Shown piece by piece: positions 23,501 through 26,500 of a stretch of DNA of 64,000 bases; the stretch's first letter is position 1; every line of letters begins with the position of its first letter. This stretch comes from Escherichia coli. GTDB lineage: Bacteria > Pseudomonadota > Gammaproteobacteria > Enterobacterales > Enterobacteriaceae. The stretch lies in assembly GCF_965641715.1 (NCBI RefSeq), contig NZ_OZ282453.1; one strand, given 5' to 3'. The position numbers are program-made.

Positions 23501-26500
23501 GCAAACACAGATGAACAGAAGAAAGCCATAAGGAAGATAAAATTTCGCATAGAACTTCCCCGCTTAATGAGCATTAGCATTCTGGCTAAAATCTATTGTT
23601 GGGGCTTTACTTACTGCGGCGACATCATCCGGTAAATAATTTTTCTTTGGCGTGTAATCCATGACCTTTGCGGTTAATACAGCGGGGAATTTGCGGATAG
23701 TGACATTATATTGTTCAATGGCTTTAATATATCTTCCTCGCGCAACGGCAATTCTATTTTCACTTCCTTCGAGCTGTACCATTAAGTTTTGATAGAGCTC
23801 TTGAGCCTTTAACTCAGGGTAACGCTCACTAATTATCGTTAACTGACCGAGAGTGCGAGTCACCTGCGCCTGGGCCTGTTGCCAGGCTTGTAATTTTTGT
23901 GCATCTCCGGGAGCTTGCTGAAGATCGCTGCTGGCGCGATTAGCCTGGCTACGAGCCAATGTTACGGCTTCCAAAACGTCTTTTTCATGGTTGGAATAAC
24001 CTTTAATACTGGCGACAAGATTAGGAATAAGATCGGCGCGACGTTGATATTGATTTAATACCTCAGACCAGGAGGCGTTAACCTGCTCATCATAGGTTTG
24101 AATATCGTTATATCCACAGCCTGATAAATTGAAAATAAATATAATTACGATGAATATCCTGAGCATGTTTAAATCCTTTTTCATTAATTCCTTAAAACAT
24201 AATACGCCGCTTCATTTTATTCTTTATGATCTAATGCACTTTTTGCCTTAAACCTGCCTGTAACAGAATGTTAATAAGACATGATTGTTGCGGCAGGATC
24301 TGCAATAATTAACAATTATCCACTTCACAGAGAATGCTATGCAGTACCCGATTAACGAGATGTTCCAGACCCTGCAAGGTGAGGGTTACTTTACCGGCGT
24401 CCCCGCCATTTTTATTCGTTTACAGGGATGCCCGGTTGGCTGTGCCTGGTGCGACACCAAACACACCTGGGAAAAGCTTGAGGATCGGGAAGTCTCCCTT
24501 TTCAGCATTCTGGCGAAGACCAAAGAGAGTGATAAGTGGGGGGCGGCGAGCAGTGAAGACTTGTTGGCTGTCATTAGTCGCCAGGGATACACCGCGCGGC
24601 ATGTGGTGATTACGGGTGGTGAGCCTTGCATTCATGATTTGCTACCACTGACTGATCTGCTCGAAAAGAACGGTTTTAGCTGCCAGATCGAGACCAGTGG
24701 TACTCATGAGGTACGCTGTACACCGAATACCTGGGTTACCGTATCGCCAAAGCTGAACATGCGCGGCGGCTATGAAGTGTTGTCACAGGCACTGGAGCGA
24801 GCCAACGAAATCAAGCACCCAGTGGGACGCGTACGTGATATTGAAGCACTGGATGAACTTTTGGCGACGCTGACCGATGATAAACCGCGAGTCATTGCAC
24901 TGCAGCCGATTAGCCAAAAGGATGATGCCACACGTTTGTGCATTGAAACCTGCATTGCGCGTAATTGGCGTTTGTCGATGCAAACCCATAAATATTTAAA
25001 TATTGCCTGATTAAACATTTATAAGCGTTATAAATGGGTGGAACCTGTGAAGACTTCTACTCATTTATATTCTTTGTCGTCTCTGAAAAACATCCATTTT
25101 GCCCATCCTGAACTAATCATTATCATTCTCTACAAATTCTGTGGCGTTAATTTTTCGTTGGAGTGAAAATTATTGCGGTAAAGTTTGGTAGATTTTAGTT
25201 TGTATAGAGTTATTTTAAATATTTACCTTTTTAATCAATGGGTTAAGTGCTCTTTAACATAATGGATGTGTTGTTTGTGTGATACTGTAAAGTTGGTAGA
25301 TTGTGACTGGCTTAAAAAATCATTAATTAATAATAGGTTATGTTTAGAGAGTTCCCCGCGCCAGCGGGGATAAACCGGGCGACCGGCAGGCGGCCTATGC
25401 GTTTTTCACGAGTTCCCCGCGCCAGCGGGGATAAACCGGGGCATTAGAATAACTTAAATGGAAAAAGAAAGAGTTCCCCGCGCCAGCGGGGATAAACCGG
25501 CCTTATCTCTGCTTGGATTCTCTGCTGATGTGAGTTCCCCGCGCCAGCGGGGATAAACCGCGGCGCACACGTTGTATTTGTGCTGCCTATGCGAGTTCCC
25601 CGCGCCAGCGGGGATAAACCGCCCACCAGCGCGTTTTTTGCCGGGGCCATAGTGAGTTCCCCGCGCCAGCGGGGATAAACCGGCAATGCTCGTACGCCGT
25701 CTCACTCCGCGTGAGAGTTCCCCGCGCCAGCGGGGATAAACCGCGGGGGCGCGGGGTGTGGACGCATTCACAGCAGAGTTCCCCGCGCCAGCGGGGATAA
25801 ACCGTATATGCAGTGCTGACAGACCGGGGGGCGCAAGAGTTCCCCGCGCCAGCGGGGATAAACCGGCAACGCAGGAACCGCAGGCGGTTCGTCATCTGAG
25901 TTCCCCGCGCCAGCGGGGATAAACCGCTTGCCGCGCCAGGGTATTTTTGTGTGGTCGTGAGTTCCCCGCGCCAGCGGGGATAAACCGTCCGCAACAACTC
26001 AGAGAACCAGACACCAAGCGAGTTCCCCGCGCCAGCGGGGATAAACCGTTTCGCCGCCGGGAAAATTTATATTAACGTTGGAGTTCCCCGCGCCAGCGGG
26101 GATAAACCGCGAAGCACGTCGGGGACCGTAAGGCGTTTGAAGAGTTCCCCGCGCCAGCGGGGATAAACCGCAATCCACGCCGAAGCGCTGGAAATGGAAA
26201 AAGAGTTCCCCGCGCCAGCGGGGATAAACCGTTTACCTGCTCGGTGATATCGTCCTGCAAATCGAGTTCCCCGCGCCAGCGGGGATAAACCGGGTACAAA
26301 AGAGGCCCCATTCTGGCAGGGCTCAAGTTCCCCGCGCCAGCGGGGATAAACCACCATATAACCCATTATCTCTTTCTCAAGTTTTTATATTAGCAGTACT
26401 CGTAATAAGCAACATATCCACGTAACACCTCATGTTCAGAATAGCTCGCCATATATGAGAAGTTCACAATTATCGATACAAAAAATTAAATTTAATCAAA

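What the first reader, a model, noticed from the sequence alone, without database searches (positions are those of the whole stretch)
25349..26353. cas-distal CRISPR array carries more spacers (16) than the cas-adjacent array (10)
A second array with the identical repeat lies about 17 kb from the cas operon next to queE, with its own AT-rich leader and a degenerate terminal repeat. It has 16 spacers against 10 at the cas2-adjacent array, and none is visibly shared between the two. As I recall, K-12 has fewer spacers at this position, so spacer content is strain-specific. Spacers are GC-rich and chromosome-like in composition (e.g. gcaacgcaggaaccgcaggcggttcgtcatct), so self-targeting should be excluded.
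Basis: seen in the sequence. Interest (0 to 1): 0.55.

Follow-up and report, generated by a model that had tools for sequence, protein, structure and literature searches.

The report
Ordinary second E. coli CRISPR array
This is the well-known second CRISPR array of the E. coli type I-E immune system (the queE–ygcE or "CRISPR2.3" array); its 16 spacers are real and strain-specific, and at least nine of them derive from prophages and F-type plasmids rather than from the host chromosome, so the finding is correct but ordinary.

Summary
Window 25349-26353 holds 17 repeats (16 perfect, a terminal one with 2 changes) and 16 spacers of 32 nt at an exact 61-nt period. It lies behind a 30%-GC leader, between queE and ygcE, 16.7 kb from cas3. 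The cas2-adjacent array (51842-52481) has 11 repeats and 10 spacers. No spacer is shared between the two arrays.

This is the CRISPR-II/CRISPR2.3 locus described for E. coli. The leader is about 96% identical to that of K-12 (identical over the last ~100 nt), and K-12 has 6 spacers here. All eight type I-E cas genes are intact and K-12-like.

No genome among 5,426 complete E. coli genomes shares more than 3 of the 16 spacers. Those shared are the three leader-distal ones, as expected for polarised growth.

The "chromosome-like, possibly self-targeting" worry is not borne out:
- Nine of 16 spacers trace to mobile elements: a ttcA-integrated lambdoid prophage, a P2-family prophage, a myovirus tail module, F-plasmid traD and a lambdoid phage gene. 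Eight of the nine carry an AAG, ATG or AGG PAM.
- None hits the window.
- Six have no match in any complete E. coli genome; seven have no traced donor.

Both arrays target the same prophages, on one strand for the main one, which suggests priming.

Verdict: already known, low interest.

The parts
24339..25010 (+). queE (ygcF), the upstream flanking gene of the CRISPR-II locus
   Evidence: NCBIfam TIGR04322 QueE, 369 bits against a cutoff of 200. It is 97.6% identical in nucleotides to K-12 queE. Hits in E. coli genomes are annotated queE.
25011..25348 (+). Leader of the array (leader2.3): AT-rich, and expected to carry the promoter and the leader-repeat junction used for spacer integration
   Evidence: GC is 0.30 overall and 0.26 over the last 150 nt. 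It is 95.6% identical to the K-12 CRISPR-II leader, and the last ~100 nt are identical. The last 35 nt are 81% like the leader of the cas-adjacent array (family D4). Function is inferred from K-12/BL21 work cited in PMC3737337 and PMC3903273.
25349..26353 (+). CRISPR2.3 array: 17 repeats of 29 nt and 16 spacers of 32 nt (A1 is leader-proximal, A16 leader-distal)
   Evidence: The repeat folds into a 7-bp stem with a 4-nt loop at -15.1 kcal/mol. NCBI annotates 'CRISPR' at the homologous place in other genomes.
26325..26353 (+). Terminal repeat variant AAGTTCCCCGCGCCAGCGGGGATAAACCA
   Evidence: It has 2 mismatches and the hairpin is intact at -15.1 kcal/mol. The same AAG..CCA variant is found in strain PapM-32-1.
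26825..26886 (+). CRISPR2.2 remnant: a partial repeat end (CAGGGATAAACCG), 20 nt, then one degenerate repeat ATGTTCCCCGCGTCAGCGGGGATAACCAT (26858-26886)
   Evidence: K-12, D8 and 64A:C have one more 61-bp repeat-spacer unit here. PapM-32-1 has the same shortened state.
26932..28410 (-). ygcE (FGGY-family sugar kinase), the downstream flanking gene
   Evidence: 492-aa ORF. It matches FGGY kinase families and is 97.2% identical to K-12 ygcE.
43086..45752 (+). cas3
   Evidence: 888 aa. NCBIfam NF007248, 1609 bits against a cutoff of 569. 95.3% nucleotide identity to K-12.
46167..50517 (+). Cascade genes cse1/casA, cse2/casB, cas7/casC, cas5/casD and cas6e/casE
   Evidence: All five are full length and above the NCBIfam cutoffs. 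They are 97.7-99.7% identical in nucleotides to K-12, which is the K-12-type 'E2' variant.
50518..51736 (+). cas1e and cas2e, the spacer integrase that serves both arrays in trans
   Evidence: TIGR03638, 376 bits against 216; TIGR01873, 142 bits against 33.
51737..52481 (+). Leader2.1 (51737-51841) and the cas-adjacent CRISPR2.1 array (51842-52481): 11 repeats and 10 spacers (B1-B10)
   Evidence: The leader is 98% identical to that of K-12. B10 is the conserved terminal unit, present in 4,243 of 5,426 genomes including K-12. B1-B9 are nearly unique.

Best explanation
The feature is the CRISPR2.3 array of the CRISPR-II locus (queE-ygcE) of an E. coli type I-E system. It is the second, cas-distal array, served in trans by the intact K-12-type cas3-cse1-cse2-cas7-cas5-cas6e-cas1-cas2 operon 16.7 kb away.

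Inferred mechanism, by near-identity to the K-12 system:
- The leader drives a pre-crRNA.
- Cas6e cuts at the 3' base of each repeat hairpin, giving sixteen 61-nt crRNAs (8-nt AUAAACCG handle, 32-nt spacer, 21-nt hairpin handle).
- Cascade uses these to find protospacers with an AAG-type PAM, and Cas3 degrades the target.
- Cas1-Cas2 adds new repeat-spacer units at the leader end of either array.

Shown here:
- The array grew in a polarised way. Only the three leader-distal spacers are shared with related strains.
- Its spacers record encounters with temperate phages and an F-type plasmid.
- The two arrays hold different spacers against the same prophages.

The larger size of the distal array needs no special mechanism. 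The two arrays gain and lose units independently. The cas-adjacent array is also known to be swapped together with the cas module, whereas CRISPR-II evolves clonally.
For: Structure and locus:
- The repeat is identical to the K-12 repeat, with a 61-nt period and a 7-bp hairpin.
- Synteny with K-12 runs from iap to eno. The leader is ~96% identical overall and 100% over its last ~100 nt.
- All eight cas genes are complete and above the curated cutoffs, at 95-99.7% nucleotide identity to K-12.

Polarity:
- PapM-32-1 shares A14-A16, the unusual AAG..CCA terminal repeat and the shortened CRISPR2.2.
- D8 and TB06051 share A15-A16. Nothing leader-proximal is shared in order.

Mobile-element origin, given as ungapped matches with the 3 nt upstream:
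- A13: 32/32, AAG, in a P2-family major capsid gene, in 7 genomes.
- A8: 32/32, AGG, in a prophage tail gene.
- A12: 32/32, AAG, in a tail sheath gene of an IMG/VR contig.
- A3: 31/32, AAG (exodeoxyribonuclease VIII), A2: 30/32, AAG, and A14: 29/32, AAG, all in one ttcA-integrated prophage.
- A16: 29/32, ATG, in F-plasmid traD, conserved in more than 4,700 conjugative plasmids.
- A5: 28/32, in a lambdoid phage gene, with no PAM.
- AAG occurs in 6 of 10 candidate protospacers over both arrays, against about 1/64 expected.

Literature:
- The two-locus layout, the conserved leader2.3 and repeat counts from 2-3 up to 29-30 in either array are described in PMC3903273 and PMC4489801.
- Acquisition at the CRISPR2.3 leader has been shown experimentally, as cited in PMC3737337.
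- CRISPR2.3 arrays of roughly 8 to 24 spacers occur in the E. coli collection, judging by the lengths of full-length matches.
Against: Nothing contradicts the identification. The functional steps (transcription, processing, interference, current adaptation) were not observed. The simple sigma-70 scan found no strong promoter close to the first repeat; the nearest hit is at 25099-25126 with 9/12 matches. From my own knowledge, the K-12 system is silenced by H-NS in the laboratory. Seven spacers (A1, A4, A6, A7, A9, A10, A11, A15 less those with CRISPR-only matches: specifically A1, A7, A9, A10, A11 with no match at all, and A4, A6, A15 with matches only in other CRISPR arrays) have no identified donor, so their origin is unproven. 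Several protospacer matches are imperfect, and A14 has seed mismatches at positions 2-4. Only 64 kb of the host genome could be checked for self-targets.
Confidence: 0.95

Rival explanations
1. The array is a fossil. It is a silent phylogenetic marker that no longer gives immunity or takes up spacers, and the 16-versus-10 difference only reflects drift by deletion.
For: The literature read here notes low turnover of E. coli I-E arrays and doubts about their barrier role (PMC4489801, and discussion in PMC3903273). Many protospacer matches are imperfect (A2, A3, A14, A16, A5). The oldest spacers are shared with strains from different continents. Seven spacers have no extant donor in very large databases.
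Against: The cas operon is complete with no frameshift. All 16 upstream repeats are perfect and every hairpin is intact. Three spacers are still 32/32 matches to extant phage genes with a PAM. Thirteen leader-proximal spacers differ from the closest relative's array, so uptake continued after the lineages split. Silence in laboratory K-12 is regulatory, not a loss of function.
Confidence: 0.3
2. Some spacers are self-targeting (chromosome-derived), and the array has a regulatory or autoimmune role rather than a defensive one.
For: Mean spacer GC of 0.55 is slightly above the window's 0.50. Several spacers match sequences inside E. coli chromosomes. Only 64 kb of this strain's genome is available, so a resident prophage carrying a protospacer cannot be excluded.
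Against: No spacer matches elsewhere in the window beyond 17 nt. Every chromosomal match lies in a prophage present in only a few genomes (7, 1 and at least 2 of 5,426), not in core genes. The GC excess is about 1.9 standard errors.
Confidence: 0.05
3. The extra length of the distal array reflects a real mechanistic preference of Cas1-Cas2/IHF for leader2.3 over leader2.1 in this strain.
For: Here there are 16 against 9 variable spacers (B10 is a universal anchor). The leaders differ in sequence, with only the last 35 nt about 81% alike.
Against: K-12, with the same cas variant and nearly the same two leaders, shows the opposite ratio of 12 against 6. Other strains vary in both directions: PapM-32-1 has 13 against about 4, VR50 has 14 in CRISPR2.1. 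The literature reports the same wide range for both arrays (PMC4489801).
Confidence: 0.1

Closest known systems
E. coli K-12 CRISPR-II locus (CRISPR2.3 array between ygcE and queE/ygcF; 'CRISPR II' of the type I-E system)
   Same: Same chromosomal position and flanking genes, and the same leader (identical over the last ~100 nt). The 29-nt repeat core, the 32-nt spacers and the 61-nt period are the same. The same CRISPR2.2 relic lies 0.5 kb downstream, and the same K-12-type cas operon is at the same distance.
   Different: This array has 16 spacers against 6, and none is in common. All its repeats start with GAG, whereas K-12's CRISPR2.3 repeats start with GTG. Its CRISPR2.2 relic lacks one 61-bp unit.
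CRISPR2.3 array of E. coli PapM-32-1 (baboon isolate, Gambia) and of strains D8 and TB06051
   Same: It shares the leader-distal spacers (A14-A16 with PapM-32-1; A15-A16 with D8 and TB06051). With PapM-32-1 it also shares the AAG..CCA terminal repeat and the single-repeat CRISPR2.2. The flanks are 99.1% identical.
   Different: All leader-proximal spacers differ: 13 here, 10 in PapM-32-1 including an internal duplication. PapM-32-1 carries the other cas-E variant (E1), with cas1 only 73% identical in nucleotides and most cas genes unalignable.
E. coli CRISPR-I / CRISPR2.1 array (cas2-iap), the cas-adjacent partner in the same window
   Same: Same repeat, same cas machinery, and targets in the same prophages. 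B4 and B2 hit the prophage hit by A2, A3 and A14. B7 hits the prophage hit by A13.
   Different: It has a different leader, 10 spacers, no shared spacer, a strongly degenerate anchor repeat, and two repeats ending in A.

Membership tests
Type I-E CRISPR array (E. coli 'CRISPR2' repeat type) | 29-nt partly palindromic repeat GAGTTCCCCGCGCCAGCGGGGATAAACCG with ~32-nt unique spacers (61-nt period) | tested here: met
   16 perfect repeats plus 1 near-perfect one, and 16 unique 32-nt spacers. The hairpin has a 7-bp stem and a 4-nt loop at -15.1 kcal/mol, z = -3.6. The repeat is identical to that of the K-12 CRISPR2.1 array.
Type I-E CRISPR array (E. coli 'CRISPR2' repeat type) | Cognate complete type I-E cas operon in the genome | tested here: met
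   cas3, cse1, cse2, cas7, cas5, cas6e, cas1e and cas2e are all full length and above the NCBIfam cutoffs.
Type I-E CRISPR array (E. coli 'CRISPR2' repeat type) | Spacers derive from foreign DNA flanked by the AAG/AWG PAM | tested here: met
   Eight of the 16 spacers have prophage or plasmid protospacers with AAG (A2, A3, A12, A13, A14), ATG (A16) or AGG (A8). A5 has a match without a PAM.
Type I-E CRISPR array (E. coli 'CRISPR2' repeat type) | Transcription into pre-crRNA and Cas6e processing; Cascade/Cas3 interference | not testable with these tools
   This is inferred only from identity of the leader, repeats and cas genes with K-12. The consensus promoter scan is uninformative.
E. coli CRISPR-II locus / CRISPR2.3 array | Located between ygcE and queE (ygcF), about 24 kb from CRISPR-I, with the CRISPR2.2 relic 0.5 kb beyond the array | tested here: met
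   queE is at 24339-25010, ygcE at 26932-28410, and the relic at 26825-26886. The array starts are 26.5 kb apart (25349 and 51842), with a 25.5-kb gap between the arrays. The layout matches PMC3903273 and PMC4489801.
E. coli CRISPR-II locus / CRISPR2.3 array | Conserved AT-rich leader2.3 next to the first repeat | tested here: met
   95.6% identical to K-12 over 338 nt, and 98.2% identical to PapM-32-1. GC is 0.30.
E. coli CRISPR-II locus / CRISPR2.3 array | Polarised evolution: shared spacers at the leader-distal end, strain-specific ones at the leader end | tested here: met
   A14-A16 or A15-A16 are shared in order with three genomes. A1-A13 are not shared in order with any of 5,426 genomes.

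The most novel reading that the evidence does not exclude
The two arrays together may be a natural record of primed adaptation. An old spacer with seed mismatches (A14, shared with a distant strain) and four younger spacers spread over both arrays (A2, A3, B2, B4) all map to the same strand of one ttcA-integrated prophage, four of them within 5.1 kb. In addition, three single spacers (A2, A5, A6) recur in otherwise unrelated arrays of other lineages. Two of these sit at the other CRISPR locus and two are flanked by a different repeat variant. This implies repeated independent capture of the same protospacers in the wild rather than vertical descent.
Probability: 0.5. Interest if true: 0.3.

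Novelty: already known. Interest (0 to 1): 0.12.

Why it matters
It matters little beyond strain typing. The locus, its leader, its independence from the cas-adjacent array and its wide size range are all described for E. coli. There are three useful by-products:
- A spacer-by-spacer origin table shows that this strain's memory is directed at temperate phages (lambdoid, P2-like and a myovirus tail module) and at traD of IncF plasmids.
- The sequence directly illustrates two textbook rules in a wild array: the PAM-derived last repeat base, and same-strand clustering of spacers.
- The array is a high-resolution lineage marker that links this strain's CRISPR-II locus to a baboon isolate carrying a different cas module.

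Tried and rejected
- My first reading of the concatenated-spacer megablast suggested that 12 of 16 spacers were absent from all E. coli genomes. That came from the 60-row listing. The blastn search of those 12 showed CRISPR or prophage matches for A2, A3, A4, A6, A8 and A13, so the claim was dropped. Only A1, A7, A9, A10, A11 and A12 are truly absent from complete E. coli genomes.
- Rfam has no family matching the array at gathering score.
- The consensus promoter and terminator scan gives nothing convincing in the leader.
- I ran exact scans with every sixth base free. For A9 and A7 these covered IMG/VR, GTDB species representatives and JGI metagenomes. For A1, A10 and A11 they covered IMG/VR only. 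All found nothing. Only A12 hit.
- The phage phi80 agt match to A14 (25/32, no PAM) and the phage LLS match to A5 (28/32, no PAM) are kept only as weak homologues.
- A1's 23/32 match in the STEC384 prophage is at chance level and was rejected.
- GC-richness as a sign of chromosomal origin was rejected (z about 1.9).
- I considered inter-array recombination as the source of the shared single spacers A2 and A6. It is less likely because the flanking repeats are of the other variant, GTG against GAG.
- PMC4489801 Table S1 gives only summed repeat counts, so it could not be used for per-array ratios.
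Full report
**1. Observation**

The window between 25349 and 26353 contains 17 copies of GAGTTCCCCGCGCCAGCGGGGATAAACCG at an exact 61-nt spacing.
- Sixteen copies are perfect. The last one (26325-26353) reads AAGTT...AACCA.
- The 16 intervening spacers are all 32 nt and unrelated to each other.
- A second array with the same repeat lies at 51842-52481. It has 11 repeats and 10 spacers, one of them 33 nt. Two of its repeats end in A and its last repeat is strongly degenerate.
- No spacer is shared between the arrays, and no spacer matches anywhere else in the 64-kb window beyond 17 nt.

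**2. What it is**

The window is E. coli.
- The 5.3 kb upstream of the array is 99.1% identical to several complete E. coli genomes.
- The gene order iap - array - cas2...cas3 - cysHIJ - ... - ygcE - array - queE - eno is that of K-12.
- The array lies between queE (24339-25010) and ygcE (26932-28410, minus strand).
- It sits behind a 338-nt intergenic leader with 30% GC. That leader is 95.6% identical to the K-12 leader at this position, and identical over its last ~100 nt.
- The repeat folds into a 7-bp stem with a 4-nt loop at -15.1 kcal/mol. The terminal repeat keeps this hairpin.
- All eight type I-E cas genes are full length and score above the curated NCBIfam cutoffs. They are 95-99.7% identical in nucleotides to the K-12 genes. 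This is the K-12-type 'E2' variant of Almendros et al. (PMC3903273).
- About 0.5 kb beyond the array is the CRISPR2.2 relic (26825-26886). Here it is reduced by one 61-bp unit relative to K-12.

This is therefore the CRISPR-II locus, or CRISPR2.3 array. It is described in PMC3903273, PMC4489801 and PMC3737337 as the second array of the E. coli I-E system, about 24 kb from the cas-adjacent CRISPR2.1.

**3. Comparison with other strains**

K-12 MG1655 has 6 spacers here and 12 next to cas2, and none is shared with this window. K-12 therefore shows the opposite size ratio with the same cas variant and nearly the same leaders.

Among 5,426 complete E. coli genomes no array resembles this one as a whole.
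- The best match, PapM-32-1 (a baboon isolate from Gambia), shares only the three leader-distal spacers A14-A16. It also shares the unusual AAG..CCA terminal repeat and the shortened CRISPR2.2.
- D8 and TB06051 share A15-A16.
- This is the classic polarised pattern: old spacers at the far end, lineage-specific ones at the leader.
- PapM-32-1 carries the other cas variant, E1. This fits the published finding that the cas-leader-CRISPR2.1 module is exchanged while CRISPR-II evolves clonally (PMC3903273).

Four further spacers recur singly in otherwise unrelated arrays.
- A2 is in CRISPR2.3 of about 10 genomes (TUM14771 and MS 69-1 were checked).
- A6 is in the cas-adjacent array of about 20 genomes (M18 and RM9387 were checked).
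- A5 is in the cas-adjacent array of roughly 300 K-12-like genomes (VR50, CFS3273 and Sanji were checked).
- A4 has a twin offset by 2 nt in about 20 genomes, mostly porcine ETEC. The offset was read directly only in strain 64A:C; for the others it is inferred from the same 31/32 match.
- A2 and A6 are flanked there by GTG-type repeats and here by GAG-type repeats. This favours independent capture of the same protospacer over transfer of repeat-spacer units. Single-spacer 'order divergence events' of this kind are discussed by Kupczok et al. (PMC4524480).

**4. Where the spacers come from**

I searched all 16 spacers by BLASTN against 50,697 phage records, 72,556 plasmid records and the E. coli genomes. 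I then ran ungapped scans of the prophages that were hit.

| Spacer | Match | 3 nt upstream | Target |
|---|---|---|---|
| A13 | 32/32 | AAG | Major capsid gene of a P2-family prophage, present in 7 genomes |
| A8 | 32/32 | AGG | Tail gene of a prophage in TUM13936 |
| A12 | 32/32 | AAG | Tail-sheath gene of IMG/VR contig UViG_2529293142_000021; 25/32 with AAG in the TUM13936 prophage, 2.5 kb from A8 on the same strand |
| A3 | 31/32 | AAG | Exodeoxyribonuclease VIII gene of the prophage integrated next to ttcA in STEC384 |
| A2 | 30/32 | AAG | cro/cI region of the same STEC384 prophage |
| A14 | 29/32 | AAG | Small gene upstream of gam in the same prophage; mismatches at seed positions 2-4 |
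| A16 | 29/32 | ATG | traD of plasmid F; the site is conserved in more than 4,700 conjugative plasmids |
| A5 | 28/32 | none | Gene of lambdoid phages (LLS, Eeyore, Flotzy) |

- For A16, the mismatches against F are at positions 14, 18 and 30. From my own knowledge of Cascade structure, every sixth position is not base-paired, so two of these three should not count.
- The cas-adjacent array targets the same elements. B4 (31/32, AAG) and B2 (27/32) hit the STEC384 prophage. B7 (29/32) hits the P2-family prophage.
- AAG precedes 6 of the 10 candidate protospacers, where about 1 in 64 is expected. This validates even the imperfect matches.
- The two array-B repeats that end in A instead of G are exactly those preceding B2 and B7, and their protospacers are preceded by A (AAA, CAA). 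From my own knowledge, the last repeat base is copied from the donor, and this fits that rule. PMC3737337 reports shifted motifs.
- A1, A7, A9, A10 and A11 have no match anywhere. A4, A6 and A15 match only other CRISPR arrays.
A9 and A7 were also absent from IMG/VR, 100,044 species-representative genomes and the JGI metagenomes.

**5. Self-targeting and composition**

- Mean spacer GC is 0.551 against 0.502 for the window, about 1.9 standard errors, which is not a meaningful excess.
- Every chromosomal match is in a prophage carried by only a handful of genomes. None is in a core gene.
- Six spacers match nothing in any complete E. coli genome.
- Self-targeting is therefore not indicated. It cannot be formally excluded without the rest of this strain's genome.

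**6. How it works (inferred from identity with the K-12 system; not observed here)**

- The leader promoter transcribes the array.
- Cas6e cleaves each repeat hairpin to give 61-nt crRNAs. All 16 spacers have a perfect upstream repeat and an intact downstream hairpin, so all 16 can mature.
- Cascade finds PAM-flanked targets and Cas3 degrades them.
- Cas1-Cas2 inserts new units at either leader in trans. Acquisition at leader2.3 has been shown experimentally in BL21-AI (cited in PMC3737337).

The five spacers against one prophage lie on one strand. Four of them fall within 5.1 kb, one is old with seed mismatches, and they are spread over both arrays. This is what primed adaptation would leave behind. 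It is an inference, with about 1 in 16 for the strand bias alone.

**7. Why the distal array is longer**

No special mechanism is needed.
- Both arrays range from 2-3 to about 30 repeats across strains (PMC4489801).
- CRISPR2.3 arrays of roughly 8-24 spacers are seen among full-length matches.
- K-12 shows the reverse ratio.
- The cas-adjacent array can be reset by module exchange (PMC3903273).
- One of the 10 spacers in the adjacent array (B10) is a universal anchor found in 4,243 of 5,426 genomes.

**8. Verdict**

The feature is an already known element with a strain-specific spacer set. Interest is low. The most novel defensible reading is that the arrays hold a natural priming record together with convergently acquired spacers. 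Those are known phenomena, so interest remains modest.

Noticed in passing
window 51903-51931 and 52208-52236 (array B repeats ending CCA); protospacers at L017 18172-18203 and L018 25760-25729: The only two internal repeats that end in A instead of G precede spacers B2 and B7. Their best protospacers are preceded by A (AAA, CAA) rather than the G of AAG. This is a natural example of the last repeat base being donor-derived, from slipped or non-canonical acquisition.
   Followed up: partly
window 25439-25470 (A2), 25622-25653 (A5), 25683-25714 (A6), 25561-25592 (A4); L003, L005, L013, L014, L015, L021-L023: Single spacers identical to A2, A5 and A6 sit in otherwise unrelated arrays of other E. 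coli lineages. A5 and A6 are at the other (cas-adjacent) locus. A2 and A6 are flanked by GTG-type rather than GAG-type repeats. A4 has a twin shifted by 2 nt. This suggests repeated independent capture of the same protospacers.
   Followed up: partly
L017 39699-44836 and 18172-18203 (STEC384 prophage at ttcA); window spacers A2, A3, A14, B2, B4: Five spacers from both arrays map to the same strand of one prophage, four of them within 5.1 kb of its early region. The oldest (A14) has seed mismatches. The pattern looks like primed adaptation.
   Followed up: partly
window 26825-26886: The CRISPR2.2 relic, described in the literature as invariable, has lost one 61-bp repeat-spacer unit here (spacer GACTTGTTATC...), leaving a single hybrid repeat. 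PapM-32-1 has the same state, while K-12, D8 and 64A:C have the full relic.
   Followed up: yes
window 43086-51841 versus L016: The window carries the K-12-type (E2) cas module and leader. PapM-32-1 is the strain with the most similar CRISPR-II locus and flanks, yet it carries the E1 module, a hok/gef gene upstream of cas3 and only about 4 repeats next to cas2. This is an instance of the published cas-module exchange.
   Followed up: partly
window 52421-52452 (B10): The last 'spacer' of the cas-adjacent array is a fixed sequence present in 4,243 of 5,426 E. coli genomes, including K-12. It behaves as part of the array's anchor rather than as an acquired spacer, so the adjacent array really has 9 variable spacers.
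   Followed up: yes
window 20595-24184 (minus strand): Three tandem paralogous TPM/YgcG-family genes plus a LemA-family gene sit where K-12 has a single ygcG and yqcG. A repeated Gly/Pro-rich coding segment recurs at 20597, 21496 and 22659.
   Followed up: no
window 6944-7243 / 8308-8607; 9250, 35426, 41930; 61565-61629: A 300-nt repeat at 68% identity lies in two adjacent ~450-aa ORFs; by their position upstream of a 918-aa ORF I take these to be the gudX/gudD paralogues. There are REP-like GTAGGCCTGATAAGACG elements in three intergenic sites. There is also a 24-nt tandem repeat (2.7 copies) near the window end.
   Followed up: no
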